Shown here: piece after piece, positions 5,886 to 20,091 of the stretch
Position numbering within the stretch: position 1 is the first letter of the stretch
Layout: each line of letters opens with the position of its first letter
Origin: an uncultured Verrucomicrobiota bacterium
Lineage (GTDB): Bacteria > Verrucomicrobiota > Verrucomicrobiia > Limisphaerales > SIBE01
Assembly (NCBI GenBank): GCA_964355375.1
Contig: CAYHFE010000001.1
Coordinates: 27,891 to 75,989 of the forward strand
DNA length: 48,099 bases
Reading direction: 5' to 3'
Notes under the pieces: generated by a model
Seen by the model: only the letters and a program-made list of their open reading frames with translations
Database searches by the model: none
Told to the model about the DNA's origin: nothing
Position numbers and translations under genes: made by a program

Positions 5886-5918
5886 CTCGCGGGCATATTG
5901 CCAGCCGTCCTGCCGGAT

Positions 5919-6819: not shown

Positions 6820-6828
6820 GGCGGCAGC

Positions 6829-7059
6829 CTAAAAAGGTTTTGCGGGGGGCAGTTGTCCCTGGTCGGGCCGCGAAAATGCCGGGTCGGTGATGTGAATCGA
6901 ATCAAAGAAGCCTTCGGGCCAGGTTTTCGGTTTCAACGGCTCCAACACAATCGCCTCGCCTTCGTGACGGACGCCAACCGTGGGCGTGGAGATGTGAAAG
7001 CCTTTCGGGAGGCACACGGTCTGGCATTCGCCTTCGTGGATGACGGTTGCTGTTTCCAT
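6829..7059 (-). CDS. vapB: AbrB/MazE-fold antitoxin VapB
   Basis: 'METATVIHEGECQTVCLPKGFHISTPTVGVRHEGEAIVLEPLKPKTWPEGFFDSI...' is the SpoVT/AbrB-type antitoxin pattern. It ends 9 nt upstream of the vapC ATG. Confidence 0.85.
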   Translation of the reverse strand: METATVIHEGECQTVCLPKGFHISTPTVGVRHEGEAIVLEPLKPKTWPEGFFDSIHITDPAFSRPDQGQLPPAKPF

Positions 7060-7144
7060 AATCGTGTTCGGTCAAGCGTACTCTTACGGGCGACAACTTA
7101 CCACGTTTCACACTTTCGCGTAAATCTCGTTTCCCAGCTCCGCA

Positions 7145-7264
7145 GCAGTTCTCATTTTGACAAGTATGTAGTCCCGGCTTCAGCCGGTCGCCAGGTGAAA
7201 CCGGCTGAAGCCGGGACGACATGCGTGGAACGGACAGTGTCCTGAGTCAAAATGAGAACTGCGG
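7145..7264. mobile_element. MITE-like element with nested perfect hairpins
   Basis: Perfect 17-bp terminal inverted repeats (7145-7161 'gcagttctcattttgac' and 7246-7262). An inner perfect 17-bp stem pairs 7171-7187 with 7201-7217. The element is flanked by the 11-bp direct repeat 'ccagctccgca' (7134-7144 and 7265-7275). Confidence 0.6.
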
Positions 7265-7564
7265 CCAGCTCCGCAAAAACTCGGGGATTTTCTGTCCATT
7301 CGCGCTTGGCAAAGACAGAGCGAAGCGGCGAGTTGTCTTGTGCGAGCGAAGATCATCTCGACGTTTTCCCACTTGCGGGACGCCCTTATCCCAGCGGTGG
7401 GATACCCAGCCAAGCTGGTTCATCGGCGGGCAGCCTTCGGATGTTTGAAAACCAAGTGGTTGCGCGATTTCAGGATGCTGGCACGGGGACTGCAAATAGG
7501 CACGCGGGTTTCCAACGAGGGTGAGTTGGAATGTATGAATCGAAAACTTAACCGAACCGTTGAT

Positions 7565-7825
7565 ATGCCTGTCATTGCTAAATTCTATGGAATTGTCATC
7601 CGGATGTTGTTCATCCAGCCTTTCGTCGCCCATTTTCACGCCTTTTACGGAGAGAGCGAACTCGTGGTGGGAATCAACCCGCTGAAGGTCCTCCAAGGCG
7701 ATGCCCCGGGCCGGGCTCGTTCGATGGTGATGGAGTGGGCGCGGCAACATCAGCGAGAGCTTCTGGAGGACTGGAGTCGGTTGGGCAGGGCGCAGGGCGC
7801 GCAGCCGATTGAACCACTCGTGTGA
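7565..7825 (+). CDS. DUF4160 domain protein
   Basis: From the ATG at 7565: 'MPVIAKFYGIVIRMLFIQPFVAHFHAFYGESELVVGI...LPGRARSMVMEWARQHQRELLEDW'. This matches the DUF4160 pattern 'FYGI.I.MY...H.PPHFHA.Y'. Confidence 0.8.
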   Translation: MPVIAKFYGIVIRMLFIQPFVAHFHAFYGESELVVGINPLKVLQGDAPGRARSMVMEWARQHQRELLEDWSRLGRAQGAQPIEPLV

Positions 7826-7826
7826 T

Positions 7827-9092
7827 ATGGATATTGCCCGTCCAGATGCGGCCAGAGCGCGGCGTCGGCGCCGCCTGCTTTACTCCGCCGGGAGTTTGGT
7901 GGTGCTCATTGCGATCACGCTCGGCTTGGCCAGGTTGAAGCCGGCCGCGCCGACGGTGGACCGGGCGCAAGTCTGGTTGGACACCGTCAAGCGAGGGGAA
8001 ATGCTCCGGCAAGTGCGCGGGAACGGCACCCTTGTGCCAGAGGAGATTCACTGGATTCCCGCCATGACCCCGGGCCGCATCGAACGCATCCGGGTGCTCC
8101 CGGGCGCGGAGGTCAAGGCGGACACCATCCTCGTGGAACTGGCCAATCCCGAAGTCGAACAAGCGGCCCTGGATGCCGAATGGCAGCTTAAAGCGGCCGA
8201 GGCTCAATCCAACAAGCTCAAGGTCCAGCTCGAAAGCGACCGTCTCAGCCAGGTGGCCCAAGCGGCTCAACTCAACTCAGAGTGTCTGGTCGCGAAGGTG
8301 GACGCGGAAGCAGACACCAAGCTCGAAGCCGAAAAGCTCGTTGACCGCCTCACCGCGCTGCGCTCGCGCACCAAATCCGAGCAATTGATCTTGCGCTGCG
8401 AGTTGGAGCAGAAGCGCCTCATCATTTTGGAACAAAACCACCAGGCGCAACTCGCCGCGCAGCAGGCGGAGTTGGAGAGATTCCGCGCCCTTCTGGCCCT
8501 CAAACGCAAACATCAGGCTGAACTCACGGTCCGCGCCGGGATTGACGGCGTGCTCCAGCGCCTGGGTGATCGCGATCCGCTTCAAGTCGGCCAACAACTC
8601 GCCGCCGGCGCAAACATCGCCCGCGTGGCGGATCCGGCCAAACTCAAAGCCGAGATCAGGGTGGTCGAAACCCAGGCCAAGGACATCGCCCACGGCCAGA
8701 AGGCGGTCATAGACACCCGCAACGGCACGGTTTCCGGGCGGGTGACGCGCATTGATCCTGCAGTCCAGAACGGCACCGTGACCGTGGATGTGGCGCTGGA
8801 AGGTCCCTTGCCGAAAGGAGCACGGCCTGATCTCACGGTGGAAGGCGTCATCGAGCTCGAGCTGCTCGCCAATGTCCTCTACGTCGGTCGCCCGGTGCAG
8901 GGCCAGTCGGAGAGCACCGTCGGGCTTTTCAAGCTCGACCCGGACGGTCACGACGCGACGCGCGTGCCCGTCAAACTCGGTCGCAGTTCGGTGAGCACTA
9001 TCGAGATTCTCGAGGGCCTCCGCGAGGGCGACCGCGTGATTCTCTCCGACATGTCCCAGTGGGACGCGCATAACCGGGTGAGACTCAATTAA
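7827..9092 (+). CDS. HlyD/MacA-type periplasmic adaptor (membrane fusion protein)
   Basis: N-terminal TM segment, a coiled-coil hairpin rich in A/Q/L/E, and a beta-barrel C-terminus ('GTVSGRVTRIDPAVQNGTVTVDV'). The ATG at 7827 is preferred over the TTG at 7809. Confidence 0.9.
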   Translation: MDIARPDAARARRRRRLLYSAGSLVVLIAITLGLARLKPAAPTVDRAQVWLDTVKRGEMLRQVRGNGTLVPEEIHWIPAMTPGRIERIRVLPGAEVKADTILVELANPEVEQAALDAEWQLKAAEAQSNKLKVQLESDRLSQVAQAAQLNSECLVAKVDAEADTKLEAEKLVDRLTALRSRTKSEQLILRCELEQKRLIILEQNHQAQLAAQQAELERFRALLALKRKHQAELTVRAGIDGVLQRLGDRDPLQVGQQLAAGANIARVADPAKLKAEIRVVETQAKDIAHGQKAVIDTRNGTVSGRVTRIDPAVQNGTVTVDVALEGPLPKGARPDLTVEGVIELELLANVLYVGRPVQGQSESTVGLFKLDPDGHDATRVPVKLGRSSVSTIEILEGLREGDRVILSDMSQWDAHNRVRLN

Positions 9093-9178
9093 TCCAAATG
9101 GTCCGGGGCGGGCGGTTCGTTGAAACCAAGTATCCGGACCATCCGCCGCGGACCAGGAACAATGAAAACAAACAACGT

Positions 9179-9934
9179 ATGACTACAAATGGTTCTCTCA
9201 TCAAACTGGAAGCGATCACGAAGGTGTTCTACACCGACGAGGTCGAAACCCACGCACTCTCGGGCGTCCATCTCGAGATTCGGAAGGGCGAGTACGTCTC
9301 GATTGCCGGCCCGTCTGGCTGCGGCAAGTCCACGCTGCTCGCGATTCTCGGCCTGCTCGACACGCCGACTGACGGGCGCTACGCGCTCAACGATCAGGAC
9401 GTTTCCAACCTCGACCACGCCGCGCGCGCGCGCATCCGCAACCGCGAGGTGGGCTTCATCTTTCAGAGCTTCAACCTCATCGGCGATCTCACGGTGTATG
9501 AGAACGTGGAGTTGCCGCTGACGTATCGCAACCTTCCCGCCGCCGAACGCAAACAGCGCGCGAACGAAGCGCTCGAAAAGGTCGGCATGTCGCATCGCAT
9601 GAAGCATTACCCGTCGCAGCTTTCGGGTGGCCAGCAGCAGCGGGTGGCCGTGGCCCGCGCTCTCGGCGGCAAACCCTCCATCCTGCTCGCGGACGAACCG
9701 ACTGGCAATCTCGACTCCAAGAACGGTGAAGCGGTGATGGAATTGTTGCGCGACCTGCACCGCGAAGGCGCGACGATCTGCATGGTCACGCACGACCAAC
9801 GCTTCGCGCGGCATGCGGATCGGACCGTGCATCTGTTTGATGGACGCATCGTGGACGAGGACTTGGGGGCACAGCGAGCGAATGAATCTCTGGATACGAT
9901 TGCTGCGGCGCAAGGCCAAGCCTCATTCAAGTGA
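9179..9934 (+). CDS. ABC transporter ATP-binding protein, MacB/LolD type
   Basis: Walker A 'GPSGCGKST', signature 'LSGGQQQRVAVARAL', Walker B 'ILLADEPTGNLD', H-loop 'VTHD'. The ATG at 9179 ('MTTNGSLIKLE') is preferred over 9098. Confidence 0.93.
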   Translation: MTTNGSLIKLEAITKVFYTDEVETHALSGVHLEIRKGEYVSIAGPSGCGKSTLLAILGLLDTPTDGRYALNDQDVSNLDHAARARIRNREVGFIFQSFNLIGDLTVYENVELPLTYRNLPAAERKQRANEALEKVGMSHRMKHYPSQLSGGQQQRVAVARALGGKPSILLADEPTGNLDSKNGEAVMELLRDLHREGATICMVTHDQRFARHADRTVHLFDGRIVDEDLGAQRANESLDTIAAAQGQASFK

Positions 9935-9985
9935 CACGTCTCGTGGCCCTCTGGCTGGAGAAAGAGCATCCTGCGCCAACGGATG

Positions 9986-10031
9986 TCCTGAACACTGAAT
10001 ACTGAACACTGAACACTGAGCACTGAGCACG
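9986..10031. repeat. tandem heptanucleotide repeat (YMCTGAR, about 6 units)
   Basis: 'tcctgaa cactgaa tactgaa cactgaa cactgag cactgag cacg', ending 5 nt before the ATG of the first ADOP gene. Confidence 0.85.
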
Positions 10032-10036
10032 TCCCC

Positions 10037-12583
10037 ATGAACGACCTCCGCTTCGCCCTCCGCATGTTGCTGAAGAAGCCCGGCTTCACTTTGGTAGCCA
10101 TGCTAACCCTTGCCCTCGGAATTGGTGCCAACACCACCGTGTTCAGCCTGGTCAACGCCTTCCTGCTCCGCCCAATGGTCGGCCAGCGCGAGGGCGAGCT
10201 TGTCCAGTGTTACAGCCGCGATACAGGGCGACCGGACACTTATCGTCCCTTCTCCTATCCGAACTACCTCGATCTGCGTGAGCAGAACCAGGTTTTTTCC
10301 CATTTGCTCGCTTATGAGCTGGCGGAGGTGGGAGTCACCGAGGACGAGGTTTCCCGGCGGGTGATGACCTGCCTGGTGACTGCCAACTACTTCACGACTT
10401 TTGGCATCATCATGGCCCGTGGACGAACCTTCAGTGCTGAGGAGGAGCAACCCGGCAGCACCATCCCTGTGGTGATTCTCAGCCACAGCGCGTGGATGGC
10501 TCGCGGAGGAGACCCGGACATTCTCGGAAAGACCCTCAGGATTGAAAACCGGCCCCATACCATCGTCGGCGTGGCGCCGCCGGACTTTACCCACCCGATG
10601 ATGATCGTGTCGCCTCAGTTTTGGCTGCCGCTGGGAATGCATGATGCGCTGCAGCGTCCTTCGGTTTCGGGCAAGGTCACGCACTTGTCGGATCGCAGCC
10701 AGCATAGTCTGTTGGTGGTTGGCCAGCTCAAACCCGGCGTCACACGGCCCGGCGCCGACGCCGACCTGCATCGCCTGGCAGTTCAAATGCAGACGGCATT
10801 CCCGGCGGAGAACAAGGACCAGACGATCCTCGTCCATCCCCTCCCTCGACTGACCATCGGCCCTTGGCCTGAGGTCGGGAGTGCCGGACGGGCCTTTGTA
10901 GTTGGTCGCATCACTCCAATGCTCTTCGCTCTGGCCGGGGCGGTCCATCTGATCGCCTGTCTAAATCTCGCGAACCTGCTTCTGGCTCGGGCATCTGGGC
11001 GACGCAAGGAAATCGCTCTGCGCCTCGCACTTGGCGCCCAGCGCTTCCAGATCATGAGGCAGTTGTTGATGGAGGCAGCCTTGCTGTCTCTGCTGGGGGG
11101 AGGTGTGAGTGTCCTTCTGGCCGCCGGGTCCACTCGATGGTTTGCTCTGTCAGCCATTCCTGCGCTTCCGTATATCCCGGTGGTCAATGCGACCCCTGAT
11201 TTGCGTGTGCTCGCCGCGACTGCGGGATTTTGCATGTTAAGCATCCTGCTGTTTGGCCTGGTGCCGGCCTGGCGCCTTTCGCGTCCCGACCTGGCAGAAG
11301 ACCTCAAGGAGCGCGGGAGTGAACCCGTCTCAGCGATTTCGGGAAGAGGTTTGTTTGCGATGCGCAACCAGTTGGTTATTGCCCAACTGATGATCTCCCT
11401 AGCCTTGTTAATTACGGCCGCTCTCTTTATTCGCGGCGCCATCAACGCGGCCCGCGTGAACCCCGGATTCGAGCTGAAGAATGGCCTGGTGGTTGAAGTG
11501 GACGCGGCCATGGCGGGTTACGATGAGGTGCGCGGTCGCCAAACTCTTCAAGCATTGGTGGAACGGTTACGGGGATTGCCAGGAGTGGAGAGTGTCAGTC
11601 TTGCGGCCTCAGTTCCGTTTGGGTTCAGGGAAGGGCGGGAGGTCAGCCGGGTGGGAGTCACACCGATGGAGTCGGCGAAGGTGGAGTCCGCCTCTGCGGA
11701 CGGGTGGTTCGGAGCCGACTACAATGTTGTGGGAGCGGATTACTTCCAAACGGTGCGGCTGCCACTCCTGAGCGGGCGTGAATTCAACCCAACGGAAATG
11801 GAGCCCGGACCAGCCACGAGTGTGGCGGTCATTGACCAGGATCTGGCGAACAAACTGTGGCCCGGCGAGCAAGCTCTGGGCCGCCAGTTGCAGGTGGCGA
11901 GTGGCACGCCGGCAGAGGCCCCACGGATTCTGGAGATCGTTGGTGTAGTCCCAACCGTGCGCAACAACATCATTGAGTCGCGACCGGTACCACACCTGTA
12001 CGTTCCCTCGGGGCGTGAATATCGTTCCAAGATGTACCTCCATTTGCGTGTGGTGCCACGAGGTCGCGCGAACGAGCTGGCCTTGCTTCGAGTCGTACGA
12101 GATGCCATCCGCGCGATGGATCCGATATTGCCTGTAACCTCACTGAAACCGCTGGCGGATCTGCCGAAAGACACGCGCGATTTGTGGTTGGTGAAGTCCG
12201 GAGCCCAGATGTTCGTGGTTTTCGGGTGTTTGGCCCTGGTCCTGGCCCTGGTTGGAGTCTATGGCGTCATGAGCTTCGCGGTAGCTCGTCGCACCCGGGA
12301 GATTGGTATCCGGATTGCCTTGGGCGCCACAGCGTCCAAGGTGCTTTGGATGACGCTGCGCGAAGGATTGCTGCTGACCGCCGTCGGCTTGGGCCTTGGA
12401 GTATTACTTGCGGCAGCGGCAGGTCGGTTGCTTGGCGGTTTGTTGTATGGAGTTAGCTCCTTGGATCCTCTGGCTTTCACCTTCGCTCCTCTGTTGCTGG
12501 CAGCGACTGCCACTTTGGCGTGCTACTTCCCGGCGCGCCGTGCGGTCAAAGTGGATCCCATGGTGGCACTGAGAAATGAATGA
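10037..12583 (+). CDS. ADOP-family duplicated FtsX/MacB-type ABC permease, paralog 1
   Basis: 848 aa. Has the family-typical N-terminus 'MNDLRFALRMLLKKPGFTLVAMLTLALGIGANT', two MacB_PCD+FtsX halves, and the C-terminus '[17 protein letters not shown]'. Confidence 0.92.
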   Translation: MNDLRFALRMLLKKPGFTLVAMLTLALGIGANTTVFSLVNAFLLRPMVGQREGELVQCYSRDTGRPDTYRPFSYPNYLDLREQNQVFSHLLAYELAEVGVTEDEVSRRVMTCLVTANYFTTFGIIMARGRTFSAEEEQPGSTIPVVILSHSAWMARGGDPDILGKTLRIENRPHTIVGVAPPDFTHPMMIVSPQFWLPLGMHDALQRPSVSGKVTHLSDRSQHSLLVVGQLKPGVTRPGADADLHRLAVQMQTAFPAENKDQTILVHPLPRLTIGPWPEVGSAGRAFVVGRITPMLFALAGAVHLIACLNLANLLLARASGRRKEIALRLALGAQRFQIMRQLLMEAALLSLLGGGVSVLLAAGSTRWFALSAIPALPYIPVVNATPDLRVLAATAGFCMLSILLFGLVPAWRLSRPDLAEDLKERGSEPVSAISGRGLFAMRNQLVIAQLMISLALLITAALFIRGAINAARVNPGFELKNGLVVEVDAAMAGYDEVRGRQTLQALVERLRGLPGVESVSLAASVPFGFREGREVSRVGVTPMESAKVESASADGWFGADYNVVGADYFQTVRLPLLSGREFNPTEMEPGPATSVAVIDQDLANKLWPGEQALGRQLQVASGTPAEAPRILEIVGVVPTVRNNIIESRPVPHLYVPSGREYRSKMYLHLRVVPRGRANELALLRVVRDAIRAMDPILPVTSLKPLADLPKDTRDLWLVKSGAQMFVVFGCLALVLALVGVYGVMSFAVARRTREIGIRIALGATASKVLWMTLREGLLLTAVGLGLGVLLAAAAGRLLGGLLYGVSSLDPLAFTFAPLLLAATATLACYFPARRAVKVDPMVALRNE

Positions 12584-12630
12584 AGAGAAGCGAGTTGGAG
12601 TGAAGCGTGATACGCGACGCAGTCTGAAAA

Positions 12631-12663
12631 CGACCGACCGACCACGGACCACGGACCACGGAG
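12631..12663. repeat. tandem tetramer (cgac x3) plus heptamer (cacggac x3) repeat
   Basis: 'cgaccgaccgac cacggac cacggac cacggag', lying 27 nt upstream of the ATG of ADOP paralog 2. Confidence 0.8.
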
Positions 12664-12690
12664 TGGATAATTGACAACGGGCAACGACCC

Positions 12691-15099
12691 ATGAACGACC
12701 TCCGCTTCGCCTTCCGCCAGTTGTGCAAGCACCCCGGCTTCACCGCCGTGGCTGTGCTGACGCTCGCGCTGGGCATCGGGGCGAACAGCGCCCTGTTCAG
12801 CCTGGTGAACAAGGTCTTGTTAAGCCCGCTGCCCTTTCCGGACCCGGAGCGCCTGATGTTGCTCCACGCGACGGACCTGGCCAACAACAGGGAGGAGATG
12901 GGGGTATCAGGACTCGACTACCTCGACTGGTGTGCCGGCTCGAAGTCCTTTGCCGCCATCGGAGCGGTTCAGTTTGGAGGCAAACTCAACCTCTCCGGCC
13001 GCGGAGAACCCGTGGCGCTCCGCGGCGTTCTGGTCACCCCGAGTTTCTTCGACGTGTTCGAGTTCCCCATGCGGCTGGGGCGGAAATTTCGCCAGGACGA
13101 GTCCGAGCCCGGAATGGAGAAGGTGGTCGTTCTGAGTCATGGCCTCTGGCAGCGCGTCTTTGGCGGCGATACGAATATCATCGCTCAGACGGTCACGCTC
13201 GATGGTGAATCTTACGTAGTGGTTGGTGTCGGTGCGCGCGTGTCGGGCTTCCTCGAAGAAATGCTTGAAATCTACGCGCCCCTGCCCGACGCGCAGTTGC
13301 GGGCCAGCCGCGGCAACGCGACTCTGACCGTCTTTGGACGGCTGAGGCCGACGGTCTCGGTGGAACAGGCGGCGGCCGAACTCCGCACGATCACCGCGGC
13401 CATTGGGTTGGAGCATCCAGGCTACAAGAACCGCAGCGCCACAGTCGTTCCGCTCCGCGACCGCTTGGTGAGAGAGGTCCGTCCGGCGTTCCTGGTGCTG
13501 TATGCCGCGGTGTTGCTGGTGTTGGGCATCGCTTGCGCCAACGTCGCCAACCTCCTGTTGGCTCGCGGGGAAGCCCGTCGCAAGGAGATCGCCGTCCGCG
13601 CCGCCCTGGGCGCGGGTCGCGGGCGGATCATTCGACAACTGCTGACGGAGAGCGTGCTGCTCTCGCTGGCCGGCGCCGCGGTGGGATTGGCCTTCGCCCA
13701 GTTTGGCCTTGAGCTGCTGCGATATTACGCGCCCAGAATCGGCGACGAACCCGTGCCGTTCCTCGACGAAATCGAGATTGATGGCCGGGTGCTGCTCTTC
13801 ACCCTGGGGGTCGCCGTATTGACCGGAATCCTCTTTGGCCTGGCCCCAGCCTGGAGTGCGGCCAAGGTCAATCTGATGGACACGCTCAAGGAGGCCTCGC
13901 GCGGCAGCTCGGGGACCGTGCGGAGTCATCGTCTGTTGAACTCGTTCGTCGTCACCCAATTGGCGCTCTCCGTGGTGTTGCTGGTGGGCGCGGGTCTGCT
14001 CGTGCGGAGCTATGCCCGTCTGACGCGGGTCCATCCGGGCTTTGACCCCAGCCAGTTGCTGACGATGGCAACGGAACTTTCGCACGCCCCCTACACGAGC
14101 GAGGCCCGGCGCCGGCAGTTCTACCAGGCGGTGTTGGAAGCGGTGCGCGCCCTGCCGAACGTGGAGTCGGCCGAGGCCATCAACATTCTCCCCATGAACG
14201 GCCGCGGTGCCGGCATGTCATTTGACTTGGAGGGCGCCGAACCGCTGCCGCCCGGACGCTTCCGAATGGCCGAGTATGGGATCGTCAGTCCCGGTTGTTT
14301 CCAGGCGATGCGGATTCCGTTGCGGCAAGGCCGGCACCTGACGCCGGCCGATGACGGCCAGCACCAGGTCGCGCTGGTCAACGAGGCATTCGTGCGCCGC
14401 CACCTGCCCGATGTGAATCCGCTGGGCCGGCGGATCAGGCAACACACCGGCCAGACCAACTGGGTTGAGATCGTCGGCGTCGTGGCGGATGTGAAGGACT
14501 CCGGGCTGGGGCACAAGACTCGGCCGGCCCTCTATCAGCCGCTCACCCAAACGTGCTGGTCCCGGATGTCACTGGTGATCCGGACCCGGGGGGAGCCCGC
14601 GCGCCTCGCGCGCACCGTGCAGGAGCAAATCTGGCGAATCGATGCGGCGCAGCCCGTGACCAATATCAAACCCATGCAAGAGTGGGTCCGCCAATCGGTC
14701 TCCGTCGAGCGGTTTTCGGCGGAACTGCTGCTGGGCTTCGCGTTGATCGGCCTGGTTCTGGCTGCCATTGGCCTCTTTGGTGTGCTGGCTTACGCCGTGA
14801 GCCAGCGGACGCACGAATTTGGGATCCGGCTGGCGATGGGTGCTCAGATCGGTGAGATCCTCCGCCTGGTGCTGATCCAAGGCTTGAAGGTGGCCGGACT
14901 GGGCTTGGGACTCGGACTCGCCGGCGCGCTGGCGTTGAGCGTGGTCTTGCAGAGTCTCCTCTTCGAAATGCGCGCCCAGGATCCGCTGACGTTCCTCGTC
15001 GTCGTCCTCTTTCTCGGGTTGGTCGCCCTGGCCGCCTGTTATCTGCCAGCCCAGCGAGCCACGAAGGTTGATCCGATGGTGGCTCTAAGATGCGAATAG
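12691..15099 (+). CDS. ADOP-family duplicated FtsX/MacB-type ABC permease, paralog 2
   Basis: 802 aa. N-terminus 'MNDLRFAFRQLCKHPGFTAVAVLTLALGIGANS', C-terminus '[11 protein letters not shown]'. Confidence 0.92.
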   Translation: MNDLRFAFRQLCKHPGFTAVAVLTLALGIGANSALFSLVNKVLLSPLPFPDPERLMLLHATDLANNREEMGVSGLDYLDWCAGSKSFAAIGAVQFGGKLNLSGRGEPVALRGVLVTPSFFDVFEFPMRLGRKFRQDESEPGMEKVVVLSHGLWQRVFGGDTNIIAQTVTLDGESYVVVGVGARVSGFLEEMLEIYAPLPDAQLRASRGNATLTVFGRLRPTVSVEQAAAELRTITAAIGLEHPGYKNRSATVVPLRDRLVREVRPAFLVLYAAVLLVLGIACANVANLLLARGEARRKEIAVRAALGAGRGRIIRQLLTESVLLSLAGAAVGLAFAQFGLELLRYYAPRIGDEPVPFLDEIEIDGRVLLFTLGVAVLTGILFGLAPAWSAAKVNLMDTLKEASRGSSGTVRSHRLLNSFVVTQLALSVVLLVGAGLLVRSYARLTRVHPGFDPSQLLTMATELSHAPYTSEARRRQFYQAVLEAVRALPNVESAEAINILPMNGRGAGMSFDLEGAEPLPPGRFRMAEYGIVSPGCFQAMRIPLRQGRHLTPADDGQHQVALVNEAFVRRHLPDVNPLGRRIRQHTGQTNWVEIVGVVADVKDSGLGHKTRPALYQPLTQTCWSRMSLVIRTRGEPARLARTVQEQIWRIDAAQPVTNIKPMQEWVRQSVSVERFSAELLLGFALIGLVLAAIGLFGVLAYAVSQRTHEFGIRLAMGAQIGEILRLVLIQGLKVAGLGLGLGLAGALALSVVLQSLLFEMRAQDPLTFLVVVLFLGLVALAACYLPAQRATKVDPMVALRCE

Positions 15100-15114
15100 A
15101 GAACCAGATTTCTT

Positions 15115-17553
15115 ATGAACAATCTTCGTTTCGCCTTGCGCCAACTGCTGAAGAATCCTGGTTTCACCGCCGTGGTGGTGATCACGCTCGCGTTGGGCAT
15201 CGGCGTGAACACGCTGGTCTTCAGTGTGGTGAATGCGGTGCTCTTGCAGCCGATCCCCGTTCGAAGTCCCGAACGGCTGGTCAATCTCTTCACCAGCCGC
15301 GAGGGTCTTCGCTACGGGCGCTCGAGCTATGCCGATTACCAGGACTTGCGGGACCGCGCGGACGTTTTCTCCGGCGTCCTGGCGCGCTGTTACTGGCCGG
15401 TCAGCGTGGGCAACGGTAAATCGAAACCCGAGGTCGTGCTGGGCAATCTCGTCTCCCGAAACTATTTCGAGGTGTTGGGCGTGAAGCCATTGTTGGGCCG
15501 TGCCTTCTCCACGACGGAAGGAAACATCGAAGGCGCCGATCCGGTCGTGGTTCTGAGCCACCGCTTCTGGAAGCGCCGCTTAGCCGCGAATCCGGACGTA
15601 GTGGGGCGGACCCTGTTGTTGAACTCCCGTACCTTCACGGTCATCGGCGTCGCACCGGAAGGATTCACCGGCTTGATGACCGGCATCCCTGAAGACGTCT
15701 GGATTCCGATCACGATGAAGGCGGGCGTCCATCCCGGGGACATCCCGCTGGAGAGCCGTGGCGACGGTTGGATGGATGTGGTGGCTCGGCTCAAGGACGG
15801 AGTGAGCCTCCCGCAGGCCCAAGCCGCAGCAAAAACTCTCGCTTCCCACCTGGCTCAGGAGTACCCGGATGCCAACAAGGACAAGCAATTCGTTCTGGTG
15901 GACGGTCAACTCAGCCGGTTCCCGGTCATGGAGTTGGCCCAGGGGCTGCGGGCGTTCACCGCGATTCTGACCATCGTGGTCGCCTTGGTACTGCTCTTGA
16001 CCTGCGCGAACGTGGCCAACCTCTTGTTCAGTCGGGCGGCCGCTCGAGAGCAAGAAATGGCGATGCGGCTGGCGCTGGGGGCCGGTCGAGGGCGCATCAT
16101 CCGACAACTGCTCACCGAAAGCGTAGTGCTGGCAGTGCTGGGCGGAGCGGTCGGTGTGCTCCTCGCGTCGTGGGGGCTGCAATTGCTGGCTCTCCTGAAA
16201 CCACCGTCGATGATGATCCCCGTCGGGCTGGAAATCCCCTTGAACGCTCGGGTGCTGGGCTACACGGCGGGACTGTCCGTGCTCGTGGGTCTGCTGTTCG
16301 GTTTGGCCCCGGCTTGGCGAAGCAGCAGCTTGCGACTGTACGGGTCTCTTCGCTCAAGCCATCTCGATGCCAGTTCACGACCGAGGCATTGGGCGCGGCT
16401 CCAGCGAGGGTTGGTGGCAGTGCAAGTGGCCCTTTCCTTCATCCTGCTGGCAGCGGCCGGATTGTGTTTGAAAAGCCTGCATGTCACGTTGCGGATGGAT
16501 CCCGGCTTTGACGCCCGTCACGGGATGATGGCCCAGCTCAACCTGGCTTACGGCAACTACGATGAGACCAAGGGCCGCCTTTTTTACGCGCAGTTGCTCG
16601 AGCGCGTGCGACAGTTGCCCGGCGTGCAGGCGGCCAGCCTGGCGGTCATCCCGCCGCTGAGCTACGCGAAGACCCAGTTGAAGGTTGAAGTGGATGGCTA
16701 TCAACCGCGCTCGGGTGAATCGCTCATCCTCGAGCACAACATCGTCTCGTCCGACTACTTCGAGACCCTGGCGATTCCCATCGTCCAAGGCCGCCCGATT
16801 GATGACCGGGACCAGAAGGAGAGCGCGCCTGTGGTGGTCGTCAACGAGACCATGGCCAGGAAATTCTGGGGTGCGGAAAGTCCTCTCGATCGAATGGTGA
16901 CCCTGAATGGCAACAAGACGCGCGTCGTGGGTGTCGCCAAAGACGGGAAGTATTTTCAACTCGCCGAGGCTCCCCAGCCCCATTTCTACGTGCCTTTGAG
17001 CCATGCTCATGTCCCGTTCACCAGCCTGCTGGTGAAGGCAGCGGGCGACCCGCGCGCGCTGATTGGTCCGGTGCTCCGCGAACTGGAGCGGCTGGACCCC
17101 AACCTGCCGATCACCGACGTGAAGACCCTGGCCCAGCAGATGGAGCTCCAGCATTACCCGACGCGCATCACGGCCGCGACCGTTGGGGCCTTCGGGCTGT
17201 TGGCTCTCGCCCTGGCGACCGTGGGTGTTTATGGGGTGATGGCCTACGCGGTGCGGCAACGCACGCACGAACTGGGGGTGCGCACGGCGCTGGGGGCGAG
17301 CCGCCGACAAATCCTGGCGTTGGTTTTGCGCCAGGGACTGCGGACCACTCTGGTCGGGGCCGGCGTTGGCATCGTCGGAGCCGTCGGAGCCGCGCGGCTC
17401 CTGGCGGGCTTCTTGTACGGGGTGAGTTCACGCGAACCGGTGGTCTTTGCCGCGGTCGCAACGCTGTTGGGAGTTGCGGCGCTTCTCGCCTGCTACCTCC
17501 CTGCGCGCCGCGCGGCGAAAGTCGATCCGATGGTGGCGCTGCGTTGTGAATGA
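15115..17553 (+). CDS. ADOP-family duplicated FtsX/MacB-type ABC permease, paralog 3
   Basis: 812 aa. N-terminus '[33 protein letters not shown]', C-terminus '[11 protein letters not shown]'. It starts only 15 nt after paralog 2. Confidence 0.92.
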
Positions 17554-17616
17554 AGAACGAGAATGCCAAATGAAGAAGGCGTCCCAGACCGTTTGCAGCC
17601 ACGCTCTCGCTCGGAG

Positions 17617-17644
17617 CCGCTCCTTCTGCCTTCGACCTCCTGTC
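17617..17644. repeat. 14-nt tandem repeat x2
   Basis: 'tgccttcgacctcc' then 'tgtcttcgaccttg', lying 14 nt upstream of the ATG of ADOP paralog 4. Confidence 0.7.
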
Positions 17645-17658
17645 TTCGACCTTGCCCT

Positions 17659-20091
17659 ATGAACGATCTCCGCTTTGCCATCCGAATGCTTCTCAAAAAC
17701 CCGGCCTTCACCATCGTCGCCGCGCTGTCGCTAGCGGTCGGCATCGGCGCCAACACGGTGGTTTTCTGTTGGATCCAGGAGACCTTGCTGCGGCCTTTGC
17801 CCGGCGTGGCGCGAAGCGAGCAAATGGTCGTGTTGTGCGCCACTCATGGCAGCGAGCAGTGGGATACGGTTTCGCTGCCGGATCTCCGCGACTACGCGAC
17901 GCTGACCAATGTTCTCAGCGGAATCATCGGTTCGCAGGTCACGCCCGCGTGCCTGACCGTGAATGGAAAGCCCGAATGGATATACGGCCAGATCACCACG
18001 GCGAACTTCTTTGAGGTGCTCGGGGTGAAGGCGTTGCTGGGCCGCACGTTTGTCGCGGAGGAGGATCTTCGCCCCGGCGGCGCGCCCGTCCTGGTGCTCA
18101 GCGAGGATTACTGGCGCCGGCGCTTTGGCAGCGACCCCAACGTCATCGGCCGGGTGGTGGATTTGAACCGGCACAGCTTCACGATTGTGGGAGTTGTCCC
18201 CGGCGCCTTTCGCGGCACGATGAGCGCGCTGCGCTGCGATTTCTGGGCGCCGTTGGTGATGCACCAACAGGTCGCCAATTTTGGATCATTGACCCAGCGG
18301 GCTGATCACTGGCTGCACACGCAGGCGAGGCTCCGGCCCGGGGTGAGTCGCGCCCGAGCCCAGGCGGCAACGGACACCATGGCGCGGCAATTGGCGCAGG
18401 CTTACCCGGACACGAATCGTGAGATCGGTCTTCGGGTGCTGCCCCTCTGGAAGGCGCCCTACGGCGGCCAAGCGCTGTTGCTGCCCGTGTTGAGCCTCCT
18501 GTTCGCCGTCAGCCTGGGCGTGCTGCTCATCGTCGCCGCGAACGTCGCGAATCTTTTGCTGGCCCGGGCGACGGTGCGCCAAAAAGAGATCGCCATCCGG
18601 CTCGCGTTGGGCGCTGGCCGGGCGCGGCTCATCCGCCAGCTCCTCACCGAAAGTCTGGTCCTAGCCTTGCTGGGAGGCTTGCTCGGCGTGCTCGCGGCGA
18701 GCTGGGGCGCCATGCTCTTTCAAGCCTTTTTACCGCGGACCTACCTGCCGATTGGGTACACCTTTGCCGTGGACGGTCGGACGTTGCTTTTCACCGTGGT
18801 GCTCACGCTGGCCACCGGCGTGGTGTTTGGTCTGGTGCCGGCGTGGCCGGCGTCGCGATTGAACCTGAACGCCACGCTCAAGGAAGGCGGGCGCACCTCC
18901 GGCACCGCGCTGCCCCATCATCGGGTCCGGAGCGCGCTGGTCGTGGCCGAAGTCTCGCTCGCCCTGGTCTTGCTGGTGGGCGCCGGGCTGTGCCTCAAAG
19001 GCTCGCACAAGGCGCAACAGCTCGACATTGGCTTCGACCCGCGCCAGGTCCTGCTGGGGGGACTGCGGGTGGGCATGCACGGCTACGACGAACAGCGGGC
19101 GCTGGTCTTCTACCGGCAGTTGCGGGAGCGGCTGGCGGGGCTGCCTGGCGTGAAGGAAGCAGCGATGGCCAGTTGGTTCCCATTGGGATTTGAAGGCGGG
19201 GGAAGTGCCGGGGTGACGGTGCCGGGATACGATCGGAAGCCCAACGAAGACGTGAACGTTCAACACGCCATCGTTTCACCGCGCTATTTCGCGGCCCTGG
19301 GCATTCCGCTGGTGGCCGGCCGCGATTTCACCGACCAGGACGACGCGACCTACCCGCGCGTGGTGATCATCAATGAAACAATGGCGAAGCGCTTTTGGCC
19401 GGGGCTGGACCCGGTGGGCCGCAAGTTCACCATCTGGAGCGGCCAGCGCGAGTTGACAATCATCGGCGTGGCGAAGAACGGGAAATACCGTTTCCTGAAC
19501 GAACCGCCGAAGCCGTTTATGTATTTCGCATATCAGCAAGGCGTCTGGGATTTGAACCTGGGCGTGGCGCTGCGCACGGAGGGCAACCCGCTCACCTTCG
19601 CCAGCGCCTTGCGCAAGGAAATTCACGCGCTGGATCCGGGCATCGAAGTGTGGAACTCGATCGCGATGTCCGACTTCATCCAGGCGGCGTTCCTGGGCCA
19701 GAAAATTGTCTCCACGCTGCTGGTGGCCCTGGGCGTGGTGGCACTCGTCTTGTCCGCGATGGGCATCTACGGCGTGATGGCCTACGTCGTCAGCCAGCGC
19801 ACCCACGAGTTGGGCATCCGCCTGGCGCTGGGTGCTTCGGCGCAACGCGTGATCCAGCTCGTACTTACGCAAGGCATGAGGCTGACGGCGCTGGGACTGG
19901 TCCTCGGTTTGATTGGCGCGGTGGCCTTGAGCCATTCGCTGACGAACTTCCTTTACGGCGTCAGCCCGTTCGATCTCCTGACGTTTGCCGGGGTCGGGGT
20001 GACGCTGGCGGCGGTCAGCCTGGCGGCGTGCCTGGTTCCCGCCTGGCGAGCCGCCCGCGTGGACCCGATGACGGCTCTGCGATCGGAATGA
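17659..20091 (+). CDS. ADOP-family duplicated FtsX/MacB-type ABC permease, paralog 4
   Basis: The ATG at 17659 gives 'MNDLRFAIRMLLKNPAFTIVAALSLAVGIGANT', like the other three. The upstream extension from 17563 is low-complexity. C-terminus 'RVDPMTALRSE'. Confidence 0.9.
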   Translation: MNDLRFAIRMLLKNPAFTIVAALSLAVGIGANTVVFCWIQETLLRPLPGVARSEQMVVLCATHGSEQWDTVSLPDLRDYATLTNVLSGIIGSQVTPACLTVNGKPEWIYGQITTANFFEVLGVKALLGRTFVAEEDLRPGGAPVLVLSEDYWRRRFGSDPNVIGRVVDLNRHSFTIVGVVPGAFRGTMSALRCDFWAPLVMHQQVANFGSLTQRADHWLHTQARLRPGVSRARAQAATDTMARQLAQAYPDTNREIGLRVLPLWKAPYGGQALLLPVLSLLFAVSLGVLLIVAANVANLLLARATVRQKEIAIRLALGAGRARLIRQLLTESLVLALLGGLLGVLAASWGAMLFQAFLPRTYLPIGYTFAVDGRTLLFTVVLTLATGVVFGLVPAWPASRLNLNATLKEGGRTSGTALPHHRVRSALVVAEVSLALVLLVGAGLCLKGSHKAQQLDIGFDPRQVLLGGLRVGMHGYDEQRALVFYRQLRERLAGLPGVKEAAMASWFPLGFEGGGSAGVTVPGYDRKPNEDVNVQHAIVSPRYFAALGIPLVAGRDFTDQDDATYPRVVIINETMAKRFWPGLDPVGRKFTIWSGQRELTIIGVAKNGKYRFLNEPPKPFMYFAYQQGVWDLNLGVALRTEGNPLTFASALRKEIHALDPGIEVWNSIAMSDFIQAAFLGQKIVSTLLVALGVVALVLSAMGIYGVMAYVVSQRTHELGIRLALGASAQRVIQLVLTQGMRLTALGLVLGLIGAVALSHSLTNFLYGVSPFDLLTFAGVGVTLAAVSLAACLVPAWRAARVDPMTALRSE

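What the first reader, a model, noticed from the sequence alone, without database searches (positions are those of the whole stretch)
7827..20091. Non-orphan ADOP locus: one MacA-like adaptor and one ATPase followed by four tandem diverged duplicated-FtsX permeases
Seen in the sequence: the gene order is adaptor, then a stand-alone MacB/LolD-type ATPase, then four 802-848-aa permeases. The permeases share the N-terminus 'MN(D/N)LRFA.R.L.K.P.FT' and the C-terminus '(K/R)VDPM.ALR.E'. They appear strongly diverged in the two large periplasmic domains.

Established knowledge: this is the ADOP family (TIGR03434, Acidobacterial Duplicated Orphan Permease). It was named 'orphan' because the genes are essentially never adjacent to ABC ATPase genes, and its function is unknown.

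Inference: four alternative permeases may share one ATPase and one adaptor. Each permease would be a covalent 'dimer' of MacB-type halves. That would make the locus a modular, swappable-specificity exporter or extractor, for example for different peptides, toxins or lipids. No outer-membrane factor gene is present in the window.
Basis: partly seen in the sequence, partly recalled or inferred. Interest (0 to 1): 0.7.

Follow-up and report, generated by a model that had tools for sequence, protein, structure and literature searches.

The report
One ABC engine, four swappable permeases
A soil-type Verrucomicrobiota bacterium carries one MacAB-like pump adaptor and one ATPase followed by four very different "ADOP" double permeases; this layout turns out to be common, so it names a likely motor for a large permease family that was labelled "orphan".

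Summary
Window 7827-20091 encodes a MacA-like adaptor, a MacB/LolD-type ATPase and four full-length ADOP permeases. All four score 784-939 bits on TIGR03434 against a cut-off of 622. They are 36-42% identical overall: about 50-67% in the membrane and cytoplasmic parts, about 30% in the periplasmic domains.

The locus is not an exception. The same adaptor (41-60% identical) and ATPase (69-81% identical) sit beside ADOP genes or arrays across Acidobacteriota, Verrucomicrobiota and Gemmatimonadota: 65 of 80 ATPase-seeded loci hold ADOPs.

The unit is larger than reported. Gene order is sigma54 response regulator, histidine kinase, a conserved -24/-12 promoter (7479-7494), DUF4160, adaptor, ATPase, then the ADOPs.

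Three close relatives keep this core but carry different permease sets. P1 (9862-12687) is a window-specific cassette, and relatives carry other ADOPs where the window has P4.

Best reading (confidence 0.55): a sigma54-controlled, MacAB-like type VII ABC machine in which interchangeable fused permeases share one ATPase and one adaptor. The outer-membrane duct is encoded elsewhere. Sharing, substrates and co-transcription are inferred, not shown.

It is a new variant of a known kind, of moderate interest.

The parts
1..276 (+). 3' end of the histidine kinase gene of the module's two-component system. The rest of the kinase and the sigma54-dependent response regulator lie just upstream of the window.
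   Evidence: Pfam HATPase_c. 47% identical to the T. roseus module kinase. L158, which is 100% identical to window 1-9356, extends upstream and holds the 428-aa kinase and an NtrC-type regulator fragment 67% identical to the T. roseus one.
258..7357 (.). 7.1-kb island inserted between the kinase gene and the operon promoter. It includes the 839-5473(-) SF1 helicase/REase_MTES_1575 gene and a PIN-domain gene. It is not part of the pump.
   Evidence: The closest relative, L161, has only 96 bp here: L161 6440-6696 matches window 1-257 and L161 6793-8532 matches window 7358-9097. Pfam; gene calls.
7479..7494 (+). Sigma54-type -24/-12 promoter element, TGGCACGGGGACTGCA (11 of 12 consensus positions).
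   Evidence: Found. The same element is conserved about 85 nt upstream of DUF4160 in L159, L160 and L161. Perfect 12/12 sites lie between the kinase gene and the adaptor gene in six other Verrucomicrobiota loci. Overall 12 of 63 loci have a site of at least 10/12, against about 1.2 expected.
7565..7825 (+). DUF4160 gene (86 aa), the first gene after the promoter. It ends 1 nt before the adaptor start codon.
   Evidence: Pfam PF13711, 51.7 bits. Conserved at the same place in L159 (88%), L161 (90%) and L160 (71%).
7827..9092 (+). MacA/HlyD-type periplasmic adaptor (421 aa) with an N-terminal membrane anchor and a long alpha-hairpin.
   Evidence: TIGR01730 above cut-off, HlyD_3 and HlyD_D23. Orthologues 41-60% identical head ADOP arrays elsewhere. 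In the single-sequence model only helices 108-178 and 183-248 reach useful confidence (pLDDT 73-87); helix 9-35 is low confidence (pLDDT about 50-60).
9098..9934 (+). Stand-alone MacB/LolD/YbbA-type ABC ATPase. The start may instead be at 9179.
   Evidence: PF00005; DarD, LolD and MacB NCBIfam hits. Walker A GPSGCGKS, Q-loop, LSGGQ, Walker B ILLADE and H-loop are all present. The closest solved structures are 5XU1_A, MJ0796, the MacB NBD, YbbA and LolD. Orthologues are 69-81% identical over the full ORF across phyla.
9862..12687 (+). P1 cassette: a window-specific insertion between the ATPase gene and P2. It comprises spacer, P1 and spacer.
   Evidence: L161 and L159 align up to window 9861/9871 and resume at 12688/12689; L160 also has the P2 orthologue directly after the ATPase. 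GC is about 0.605 here against about 0.65 in P2 and P4. P1 orthologues (67-75%) sit in other arrays elsewhere.
9988..10030 (+). Tandem heptamer CTGAACA x6.1 in the ATPase-P1 spacer.
   Evidence: TRF score 65, the highest in the window.
10037..12583 (+). ADOP permease P1 (848 aa).
   Evidence: TIGR03434 784 bits; 2x MacB_PCD and 2x FtsX.
12640..12662 (+). Tandem heptamer GACCACG x3.3 in the P1-P2 spacer.
   Evidence: TRF score 46.
12691..15099 (+). ADOP permease P2 (802 aa). In this lineage it is the conserved core permease.
   Evidence: TIGR03434 939 bits. Orthologues 92%, 92% and 82% identical follow the ATPase directly in L159, L161 and L160. AlphaFold2 model with pLDDT 87.9: 8 TM helices, 2 coupling helices and 2 periplasmic domains. 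Best full-length fold match is YbbP, then MacB.
15115..17553 (+). ADOP permease P3 (812 aa), 15 nt after P2.
   Evidence: TIGR03434 907 bits. A 96% orthologue follows the P2 orthologue in L161. It is absent from L159 and L160.
17622..17652 (+). 14-nt tandem repeat x2.2 in the P3-P4 spacer.
   Evidence: TRF score 48.
17656..20091 (+). ADOP permease P4 (811 aa from the conserved MNDLRFA start; 842 aa if the ATG at 17563 is used).
   Evidence: TIGR03434 904 bits. The close relatives carry a different ADOP here. The nearest relatives in the sample are 52-55% identical, in Opitutaceae and Verrucomicrobiota loci.

Best explanation
The locus is one operon-like unit of a Verrucomicrobiota chromosome. 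It reads: sigma54 promoter, DUF4160, membrane-anchored MacA-like adaptor, one ABC ATPase, then four ADOP permeases. A sigma54-dependent response regulator and a histidine kinase are encoded just upstream.

Shown:
- Each ADOP is a single-chain pseudo-dimer of the MacB (type VII ABC) fold: 2 x (TM1, periplasmic domain, TM2-4).

Inferred:
- Each ADOP binds two copies of the single ATPase through its two conserved coupling helices, as E. coli YbbP binds two YbbA.
- The adaptor links the permease's periplasmic domains to a TolC-like duct encoded elsewhere, as in MacAB-TolC.
- The four permeases are alternative partners of the same ATPase and adaptor. Their conserved cytoplasmic and membrane faces fit the common engine. 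Their roughly 30%-identical periplasmic domains give different substrate or partner specificity.
- ATP-driven mechanotransmission expels or extracts periplasmic or outer-leaflet compounds. The substrates are unknown.

Over evolutionary time the permeases behave as cassettes that are inserted, lost and replaced at the spacers, while the engine is kept.
For: Family and fold:
- HMM and domain membership.
- AlphaFold2 model of P2 with pLDDT 87.9: eight TM helices, coupling helices at 297-305 and 707-715, and two beta-rich periplasmic domains.
- Fold matches to YbbP, MacB, Spr0695, LolC/E and BceB. Sequence matches to MacB structures.

ATPase and conservation pattern:
- The ATPase has every catalytic motif.
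- Invariant columns across 101 ADOPs cluster at the N-terminus, the two coupling helices and the C-terminus.
- Paralogue identity is 67% and 50% in the cytoplasmic and TM parts against 29-31% in the periplasmic parts.

Conserved synteny:
- The adaptor orthologue precedes the ATPase in 57 of 71 loci, and 65 of 80 ATPase loci hold ADOPs.
- A TolC-like OEP gene lies in the same gene string in T. roseus and in L116.
- The order regulator, kinase, sigma54 site, adaptor, ATPase, ADOPs recurs in Verrucomicrobiota and in this lineage.

Engine versus cassettes:
- The ATPase is 69-81% identical and the adaptor 41-60%, but ADOPs only about 36% between loci. There is no positional orthology: first-position ADOPs are 35.9% identical to each other and 35.9% to those at other positions.
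- Close relatives with 86-96% DNA identity keep DUF4160, adaptor, ATPase and P2 but differ in the other permeases.

One transcription unit:
- All genes are on the same strand, with gaps of 15-107 nt.
- Terminator-like sites are not above chance (21 against 17 +/- 4.5).
- Sigma54-like sites are essentially absent from ADOP spacers (2 of 134).
Against: - No experiment or complex prediction links any ADOP to this ATPase or adaptor.
- Most ADOP genes in the sample (82 of 99) are not within 5 kb of an ATPase, and arrays without any ATPase are frequent. Adjacency is therefore not obligatory.
- L246 has the adaptor followed directly by six ADOPs with no ATPase within 10 kb.
- 31 of 80 loci carry a second ATPase type, sometimes interleaved with ADOPs, so some permeases may have their own ATPase.
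- P1 is a recent insertion and might not be integrated functionally.
- The roughly 100-nt spacers with tandem repeats could hold internal promoters of a type the scans do not cover.
- No outer-membrane factor gene is in the window.
- The sigma54 site is a consensus match supported by conservation, not a mapped promoter.
Confidence: 0.55

Rival explanations
1. Only the lineage's core permease (P2, perhaps with P3) works with the adjacent ATPase and adaptor. The other cassettes (P1, P4) are 'orphan-type' ADOPs that merely reside in the array. They would use another ATPase or act without ATP, for example as sensors or scaffolds, as BceB and FtsX do in part.
For: - P2 is the only permease conserved next to the ATPase in all three close relatives. 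P1 is a window-specific insertion, and relatives carry other ADOPs where the window has P4.
- Most ADOPs elsewhere have no nearby ATPase.
- A second ATPase type is interleaved with ADOPs in other loci.
- The variable cassettes have long repeat-bearing spacers, whereas P2 and P3 are 15 nt apart.
Against: - All four keep the full set of conserved cytoplasmic elements and score far above the family cut-off.
- No first-position permease class exists across loci.
- There is no second ATPase in the module region of the window; the only other ABC ATPase ORF is the SUF-cluster one at 34865-35827.
- An ATP-independent function is unknown for any MacB-fold permease with intact coupling helices (general knowledge of the family).
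Confidence: 0.2
2. The system is not an efflux pump across the outer membrane. It is an extractor or mechanotransducer of the LolCDE, YbbAP-TesA or FtsEX kind. Each ADOP would pull a different lipid, lipoprotein or hydrophobic compound out of the inner membrane and hand it to a periplasmic partner, with the adaptor serving another role.
For: - No outer-membrane factor gene is in the window.
- The best full-length fold match is YbbP, a lipid or hydrophobic-compound extractor (PMC12646458).
- The Psychroflexus ADOP cluster contains a multifunctional acyl-CoA thioesterase gene (PMC3914696).
- Aas-like lipid genes lie 5 kb downstream.
Against: - A HlyD/MacA-type adaptor with a roughly 2 x 70-residue hairpin heads the module.
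- Relatives encode a TolC-like OEP in the same gene string.
- By sequence the permeases are nearer to MacB than to YbbP or LolC/E.
- tolC is also unlinked to macAB in E. coli (established knowledge).
Confidence: 0.17
3. The array is mostly evolutionary debris. Under this reading, duplicated or horizontally acquired permease genes accumulate without distinct function.
For: - Fast cassette turnover between close relatives, and a truncated 249-aa fragment at the end of the L159 array.
- Fragmentary ADOP ORFs occur in several surveyed loci, although many of those come from MAG frameshifts.
Against: - All four window genes are intact and full length, with 784-939-bit family scores.
- The paralogues are ancient (36-42% identical), and each has closer relatives in other genomes: 42-55% in the sample, and up to 92-95% in metagenomes. 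This indicates long-term purifying selection.
- In other organisms most copies are transcribed or translated (PMC10564751, PMC3914696).
Confidence: 0.05

Closest known systems
MacAB-TolC tripartite efflux pump (E. coli; PDB 5NIK, 5LIL, 5GKO)
   Same: - MacB-fold permease with a MacB_PCD periplasmic domain and an FtsX four-helix bundle.
- MacB/LolD-type nucleotide-binding domain.
- Membrane-anchored HlyD/MacA-type adaptor.
- The outer-membrane duct is encoded elsewhere.
- Best PDB sequence matches of the permease.
   Different: - Here the ATPase is a separate protein, and the two permease halves are fused into one 800-aa chain with two non-identical periplasmic domains.
- Four alternative permeases follow one ATPase and one adaptor.
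- The module sits under a sigma54 two-component system.
YbbAP-TesA (E. coli type VII ABC; PDB 9GE6-9GE8; PMC12646458)
   Same: - A single-chain, internally duplicated type VII permease that binds two copies of a separate ATPase through two coupling helices (2:1).
- Best full-length fold match of the P2 model.
- The ATPase matches YbbA at 200 bits.
   Different: - YbbP has 10 TM helices (an extra linking pair) and works with the TesA hydrolase, without an adaptor.
- ADOPs have 8 TM helices and two MacB-like periplasmic domains, and come with a MacA-like adaptor.
- There is no detectable sequence match to YbbP.
ADOP family, TIGR03434 (Acidobacterial Duplicated Orphan Permease)
   Same: All four permeases are members by the curated HMM and by domain architecture.
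   Different: The family description stresses the absence of adjacent ATPase genes and an acidobacterial range. Here, and in many surveyed loci, a conserved ATPase and adaptor lie beside the ADOP genes, usually at the head of the array, and the host is Verrucomicrobiota.
Darobactin exporter DarBCD (NCBIfam NF038007, NF038008, NF038010)
   Same: - The same three-part design: a roughly 777-aa permease model, a periplasmic adaptor and an ATPase.
- The ATPase's top NCBIfam hit is DarD (258 bits). The adaptor hits DarC over its full length, and P1, P3 and P4 hit DarB weakly; P2 does not.
   Different: All scores are far below the equivalog cut-offs (258 against 375, 51 against 450, at most 30 against 700). 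There is no radical-SAM enzyme or precursor gene, and there are multiple permeases.
Shared energising modules (group II ECF transporters; multitask MsiK/MsmK ATPases of sugar importers). This comparison rests on recalled knowledge and was not tested here.
   Same: The concept of one ATPase module serving several interchangeable membrane specificity components.
   Different: Those are importers of unrelated folds. Sharing has not been described for type VII exporters, and here it is only inferred.
BceAB-BceRS (PDB 7TCG, 8G3A)
   Same: - A type VII-like permease with 2:1 ATPase stoichiometry.
- It is genetically coupled to a histidine kinase that has two TM helices and almost no extracellular loop. 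The kinase here likewise has a loop of about 10 residues.
   Different: - BceB has a single extracellular domain and 10 TM helices.
- The regulator there is OmpR-type, not sigma54-dependent.
- There is no adaptor.
- Sensing through the transporter is untested here.

Membership tests
ADOP family (TIGR03434) | Whole-protein score above the curated NCBIfam cut-off (622.3 bits), aligned end to end. | tested here: met
   784.4, 939.2, 907.0 and 904.4 bits, covering profile positions 3-803.
ADOP family (TIGR03434) | Internal duplication: two FtsX (PF02687) domains, each preceded by a MacB_PCD domain. | tested here: met
   Two stretches of each domain in all four proteins. Eight hydrophobic segments. 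The model shows 8 TM helices.
ADOP family (TIGR03434) | 'Orphan': no adjacent ABC ATPase gene. This is a descriptive feature from the family text, as recalled. | tested here: not met
   An ATPase gene lies 102 nt upstream of P1. In the sample, 17 of 99 ADOP genes lie within 5 kb of an ATPase. This is a property of context, not of sequence, so membership stands.
ADOP family (TIGR03434) | Restricted to Acidobacteria (a descriptive feature). | tested here: not met
   The window's enolase is 84-89% identical to Verrucomicrobiota and Limisphaerales MAGs. ADOP loci were found in Verrucomicrobiota, Gemmatimonadota and Phycisphaerae. Bacteroidota cases are reported in PMC3914696 and PMC11573002.
Type VII (MacB-fold) ABC transporter | The MacB fold: TM1, periplasmic Porter/Sabre domain, TM2, cytoplasmic coupling helix, TM3-TM4. 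| tested here: met
   AlphaFold2 model with pLDDT 87.9. Foldseek matches to YbbP, MacB, Spr0695, LolC/E, BceB and HrtB at probability 1.00.
Type VII (MacB-fold) ABC transporter | A cognate, catalytically competent MacB/LolD-type ATPase. | tested here: met
   All motifs are present. Matches of 197-226 bits to the Spr0694 ATPase, the MacB NBD, YbbA and LolD structures.
Type VII (MacB-fold) ABC transporter | Physical 2:1 ATPase-permease complex and ATP-driven mechanotransmission. | not testable with these tools
   No multimer prediction or experiment was available.
MacAB-TolC-type tripartite efflux pump | A periplasmic adaptor of the HlyD/MFP family with a membrane anchor and an alpha-hairpin. 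| tested here: met
   TIGR01730 97.7 bits against 94.9; HlyD_3 and HlyD_D23. Hairpin helices 108-178 and 183-248 have pLDDT 73-87; the N-terminal helix 9-35 is low confidence (pLDDT about 50-60), and the rest of the single-sequence model is poor.
MacAB-TolC-type tripartite efflux pump | A TolC-like outer-membrane factor. | tested here: inconclusive
   None is in the window. An OEP gene lies in the same gene string in T. roseus and L116, and in a few other loci. The rest of this genome cannot be seen.
Sigma54-dependent operon under an NtrC-type two-component system | A -24/-12 element (TGGCAC-N5-TTGCA) upstream, and a linked regulator with a sigma54-interaction domain. | tested here: met
   The site at 7479-7494 matches 11 of 12 positions. 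It is conserved in three close relatives and perfect (12/12) in six other Verrucomicrobiota loci. The regulator and kinase lie upstream. Promoter activity itself was not tested.
Darobactin exporter DarBCD | Equivalog-level scores to NF038007, NF038008 and NF038010. | tested here: not met
   258 against 375, at most 30 against 700, and 51 against 450 bits.

The most novel reading that the evidence does not exclude
The conserved ATPase and adaptor could be the common engine of the whole ADOP family, including the dozens to about 100 'orphan' copies scattered through Acidobacteriota and Verrucomicrobiota genomes. The system would then resemble ECF transporters, with one energising module and many plug-in specificity subunits, but for envelope export or extraction. 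Permease cassettes would be exchanged between arrays and genomes. The loop-less histidine kinase might sense transporter activity, as BceS does, to drive sigma54-dependent expression.
Probability: 0.22. Interest if true: 0.75.

Novelty: new variant of a known kind. Interest (0 to 1): 0.5.

Why it matters
ADOPs are among the largest unexplained paralogue families of soil Acidobacteriota and Verrucomicrobiota. One MAG carries 102 copies, most of them transcribed (PMC10564751). Since the family was defined they have been annotated as permeases without a motor.

This work shows that a highly conserved ATPase and MacA-like adaptor, often with a sigma54 two-component system and sometimes a TolC-like gene, lie beside ADOP genes or arrays in many genomes. 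That gives concrete, testable partners.

It also suggests a design principle: one engine with many interchangeable fused permeases that turn over as cassettes. This has not been described for type VII ABC systems.

This window is a compact six-gene example suitable for reconstitution. The individual locus, however, is one of many such loci, and nothing in it departs from the known MacB mechanism.

Tried and rejected
- Sigma70 promoter and intrinsic terminator scans of 5400-21500: no promoter, and terminator-like sites at the chance level. These give no information on transcript structure.
- Rfam and tRNA scans of the window: nothing found.
- Search for a PadR regulator in the window. PadR-like genes precede some orphan ADOPs elsewhere. 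None was found in the window, though the single-sequence tblastn is insensitive.
- Search for an outer-membrane factor gene in the window: none.
- Recent gene conversion or recombination between paralogues: rejected. DNA identity at the conserved 5' and 3' ends is only 63-74%.
- A conserved 'primary' permease at array position 1: rejected.
- Internal sigma54 promoters in the ADOP spacers: rejected, with 2 of 134 spacers against about 0.7 expected.
- ADOP-specific heptamer repeats: only partly upheld. They are strongly above shuffled and coding controls in the spacers. But period-7 repeats are also the commonest class elsewhere in the same loci, so they may be a general intergenic habit of these genomes.
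- Single-sequence structure of the adaptor: poor (pLDDT 52). Only the hairpin is usable.
- The ORF 24502-26970(+) (822 aa) was checked as a possible fifth permease. It is the antisense shadow of the acyltransferase/AMP-binding gene at 24820-26946(-).
- MAG labels such as 'Bifidobacterium', 'Heliomicrobium' and 'archaeon' on some loci were treated as binning or labelling errors.

Full report
**1. What is in the sequence**

Window 7827-20091 holds six same-strand genes.

- The first is a 421-aa HlyD/MacA-type adaptor. It scores 97.7 bits on TIGR01730 against a cut-off of 94.9, and also hits Pfam HlyD_3 and HlyD_D23.
- The second is a stand-alone ABC ATPase at 9098-9934. Its start may instead be M28 at 9179, which is where the gene is called in relative L159. 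Its best NCBIfam matches are DarD, LolD, MacB and YbbA, all below their equivalog cut-offs. It carries Walker A, the Q-loop, LSGGQ, Walker B with the catalytic Glu, and the H-loop.
- The next four genes are ADOP family members by NCBI's curated model TIGR03434. They score 784, 939, 907 and 904 bits against a cut-off of 622, aligned end to end. Each has two MacB_PCD and two FtsX Pfam domains.
- P4 most likely starts at the conserved MNDLRFA at 17656 (811 aa) rather than at 17563.

The paralogues are 36-42% identical overall. Identity is 67% in the N-terminal helix plus TM1 and 50% in each FtsX bundle, but only 29-31% in each periplasmic domain.

**2. Fold**

An AlphaFold2 model of P2, built on a 101-sequence alignment, has mean pLDDT 87.9 and pTM 0.81.

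- It shows an N-terminal amphipathic helix and eight long TM helices.
- Short cytoplasmic coupling helices follow TM2 (297-305) and TM6 (707-715).
- There are two beta-rich periplasmic domains.

Foldseek against the PDB gives E. coli YbbP (9GE6) as the best full-length match. MacB, Spr0695, BceB, LolC/E and HrtB follow. By sequence the nearest solved proteins are MacB structures. Each ADOP is therefore a covalent pseudo-dimer of the type VII (MacB) fold. It has 8 TM helices, not the 10 of YbbP.

In YbbAP, two YbbA subunits bind one YbbP through two coupling helices (PMC12646458). This is the structural precedent for a 2:1 ATPase:ADOP complex. Across the 101 ADOPs, invariant columns cluster at the N-terminus, both coupling helices and the C-terminus. 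These are the cytoplasm-facing parts.

**3. The arrangement is common**

I ran two surveys of one-genome-per-species contigs, each with 10-kb flanks.

*Seeded with the permeases (77 loci).*
- Tandem same-strand ADOP arrays are the rule. Many fill the whole 20 kb in view.
- Eight loci begin with orthologues of the window's adaptor (51-60% identical) and ATPase (73-79% identical).
- Of 99 ADOP genes with 5 kb visible on both sides, 17 lie within 5 kb of an ATPase gene.
- Single ADOPs were always orphan.

*Seeded with the ATPase (80 loci).*
- The best matches are 69-81% identical over the full ORF (72-82% over the best aligned segment). They come from Acidobacteriota, Verrucomicrobiota and Gemmatimonadota MAGs and from the cultured Terriglobus roseus DSM 18391.
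- The adaptor orthologue precedes the ATPase in 57 of 71 loci where the upstream side is visible.
- An ADOP follows within 2.5 kb in 43 of 62 loci.
- 65 of 80 loci hold ADOPs.
- In 14 of 45 loci with a full flank, four ADOPs fill the 10 kb in view.

The statement that ADOP genes are essentially never next to ATPase genes is therefore outdated. This locus is one instance of a widespread module.

The literature I could search holds no characterisation of the module.
- PMC3914696 notes a highly expressed cluster of ten ADOP paralogues beside other transporters, including ATP-binding ones, in Psychroflexus torquis.
- PMC10564751 counts 102 copies in one acidobacterial MAG, 80 of them transcribed.
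- PMC11573002 reports 28-33 copies in Dyadobacter.

**4. The unit is larger than the finding**

Neighbour clustering and Pfam show recurrent partners.
- T. roseus has the order ADOP, adaptor, ATPase, ADOP, TolC-like OEP, sigma54-dependent response regulator, histidine kinase.
- Verrucomicrobiota loci have the order regulator, kinase, adaptor, ATPase, ADOPs.

The window itself fits this pattern.
- It begins with the last 92 codons of such a kinase.
- A metagenome contig 100% identical to window 1-9356 extends upstream. It carries the rest of the kinase and the regulator.

Between the kinase and adaptor genes, six Verrucomicrobiota loci have a perfect sigma54 -24/-12 consensus, TGGCACG-N4-TTGCA. 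Overall 12 of 63 loci have a match of at least 10/12, against about 1.2 expected. The window has TGGCACGGGGACTGCA at 7479-7494. This element is conserved in three close relatives even where the flanking sequence has diverged.

In this lineage the first gene after the site is a DUF4160 ORF at 7565-7825. Other Verrucomicrobiota have a different 92-107-aa ORF there.

ADOP spacers almost never contain sigma54-like sites: 2 of 134. Simple terminator scans are at the chance level. These data fit one sigma54-driven transcript, but they do not prove it.

**5. Cassette turnover**

Homologues of P2 led to three close relatives.

- **L161** (88-96% DNA identity) has the order regulator, kinase, 96 bp, DUF4160, adaptor, ATPase, P2 orthologue (92%), P3 orthologue (96%), then a different ADOP.
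- **L159** has DUF4160, adaptor (92%), ATPase (90%), P2 orthologue (92%), then an ADOP only 52% identical to P2, then a 249-aa fragment.
- **L160** has the P2 orthologue (82%) followed by two other ADOPs.

Relative to these, the window differs in three ways.
- It has a 7.1-kb island (258-7357) between the kinase gene and the promoter. The island includes an SF1 helicase-nuclease gene and a PIN-domain gene.
- It has a 2.8-kb P1 cassette (9862-12687) inserted between the ATPase gene and P2. GC there is about 0.605, against about 0.65 in P2 and P4.
- It has its own P4.

P1 orthologues (67-75% identical) sit inside other large arrays elsewhere. One of these arrays has the adaptor followed directly by six ADOPs, with no ATPase within 10 kb.

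In the survey sample, each window paralogue has closer relatives in other genomes (42-55%) than among its three neighbours. Across 130 ADOPs with a known position after the ATPase, there is no positional orthology. First-position ADOPs are 35.9% identical to each other and 35.9% to those at other positions.

So the engine (ATPase 69-81% identical, adaptor 41-60%) is stable, while the permeases (about 36% identical) are shuffled as whole genes.

**6. Most likely mechanism**

*Shown:* family membership, fold, motifs, synteny and cassette turnover.

*Inferred:*
- Each ADOP binds two copies of the one ATPase.
- The adaptor, with a membrane anchor and a roughly 2 x 70-residue hairpin (low-confidence model outside the hairpin), couples the periplasmic domains to a TolC-like duct encoded elsewhere.
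- The four permeases are alternative specificity subunits.
- The operon is switched on by the sigma54 two-component system.

The kinase has two N-terminal TM segments separated by about 10 residues. It is therefore unlikely to bind periplasmic ligands by itself. Sensing through the transporter, as in BceAB-BceS, is a speculation. Substrates are unknown.

Caveats:
- Most ADOPs elsewhere have no nearby ATPase.
- A second ATPase type (41-48% identical) occurs in 31 of 80 loci, sometimes interleaved with ADOPs.
- P1 is a recent arrival.

**7. Rivals**

- (a) Only the core permease uses the engine, and the others are orphan-type.
- (b) The system is an extractor of the LolCDE or YbbAP type rather than an efflux pump.
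- (c) The array is decaying duplicates. This is disfavoured by intact genes, ancient divergence and close orthologues elsewhere.

**8. Verdict**

The locus is a member of a widespread but uncharacterised architecture within the known type VII/MacAB kind, so it is a new variant of a known kind. Its value is that it names candidate partners for the 'orphan' ADOP family and shows cassette-like permease turnover. This particular window is not exceptional among such loci.

**9. Limits of the surveys**

- The loci were picked by similarity to the window's proteins.
- Flanks are limited to 10 kb.
- Genes were called by stop-to-stop ORFs plus BLAST.
- Many records are MAGs with frameshifts and unreliable taxon labels.

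Noticed in passing
window 9988-10030, 12640-12662, 17622-17652 (also 7785-7800); spacers upstream of ADOP genes in L001-L157: The three best tandem repeats of the whole window are heptamer-type repeats (CTGAACA x6, GACCACG x3.3 and a 14-mer x2.2). They lie in the roughly 100-nt spacers that flank the lineage-variable cassettes P1 and P4. The conserved 15-nt P2-P3 junction and the relatives' tight junctions have none. Across 134 ADOP spacers, 40 have TRF scores of at least 40, and 25 of those have period 7, 14 or 21. Shuffled controls give 0.8 and coding controls 1.8. Period-7 repeats are also the commonest class elsewhere in these loci, so this may be a general intergenic habit of these genomes. 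The function is unknown. Possibilities include slippage-tuned expression, as at the H. influenzae hmw promoters, or scars of recombination.
   Followed up: partly
window 258-7357 (839-5473 minus strand; small ORFs at about 5.6-7.3 kb): A 7.1-kb island is inserted between the kinase gene and the operon promoter, relative to L161. It holds a 1544-aa SF1 helicase with a C-terminal REase_MTES_1575/DUF559 nuclease domain, and a PIN-domain gene (gene calls on L158). It looks like defence or mobile DNA.
   Followed up: partly
L008 7649-7927, L011 5445-5768, L111 1851-2156, L112 4985-5293, L147 8277-8558, L149 8252-8563, also L139: A conserved 92-107-aa ORF lies between the sigma54 promoter and the adaptor gene in other Verrucomicrobiota modules (MKPT...SFRxISxDYFKNEA...hydrophobic C-terminal helix). 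It has no Pfam hit. The window's lineage has a DUF4160 gene at that position instead. It could be an accessory membrane protein or a substrate precursor.
   Followed up: partly
L011, L051, L053, L072/L081, L086, L097, L104, L110, L113, L137 and others; L243, L244: A second ABC ATPase type, 41-48% identical to the window's, occurs in 31 of 80 module loci. It lies either directly after the first ATPase or interleaved between ADOPs or at the array's 3' end. This hints at heterodimeric nucleotide-binding domains or permease-specific ATPases. The window has none.
   Followed up: partly
L158 9078-10364 (the kinase whose 3' end is window 1-276): The module's histidine kinase (429 aa) has two N-terminal TM segments separated by only about 10 residues. 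This is the intramembrane-sensing type, like BceS, which senses through its ABC transporter.
   Followed up: no
window 20369-20872 and 21463-23127: Directly downstream of the array lie an ORF with only the N-terminal third of the XhoI restriction endonuclease domain and a Schlafen-group-3/DUF2075-like helicase. These are further defence-like genes flanking the operon.
   Followed up: no
window 24013-27847 (minus strand): This stretch holds an Aas-like fusion (acyltransferase plus AMP-binding acyl-ACP synthetase, 708 aa), an alpha/beta hydrolase and a MarR regulator. These are lipid-remodelling genes 4-7 kb from the pump. They are interesting given the lipid-extraction role of YbbAP-TesA, but no link has been shown.
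   Followed up: no
L007 12685-13026, L070 9385-9726, L075, L020, L021, L025, L031, L005: PadR-like regulator genes lie immediately upstream of some orphan ADOP genes. Orphan copies may therefore be controlled differently from the sigma54 modules. The detection, a single-sequence tblastn, was insensitive.
   Followed up: partly
L242 1834-4785, L244 3591-4562, L245: Ankyrin-repeat and DUF4097 genes are embedded inside large ADOP arrays that contain P1 orthologues.
   Followed up: no
window 30967-47914: The rest of the window is ordinary chromosome: SufS, SufB/D and SufC, MnmG, phosphoglucose isomerase, MotA-like, enolase and aspartokinase. The enolase places the organism in Verrucomicrobiota, with 84-89% identity to Limisphaerales and other Verrucomicrobiota MAGs.
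   Followed up: yes
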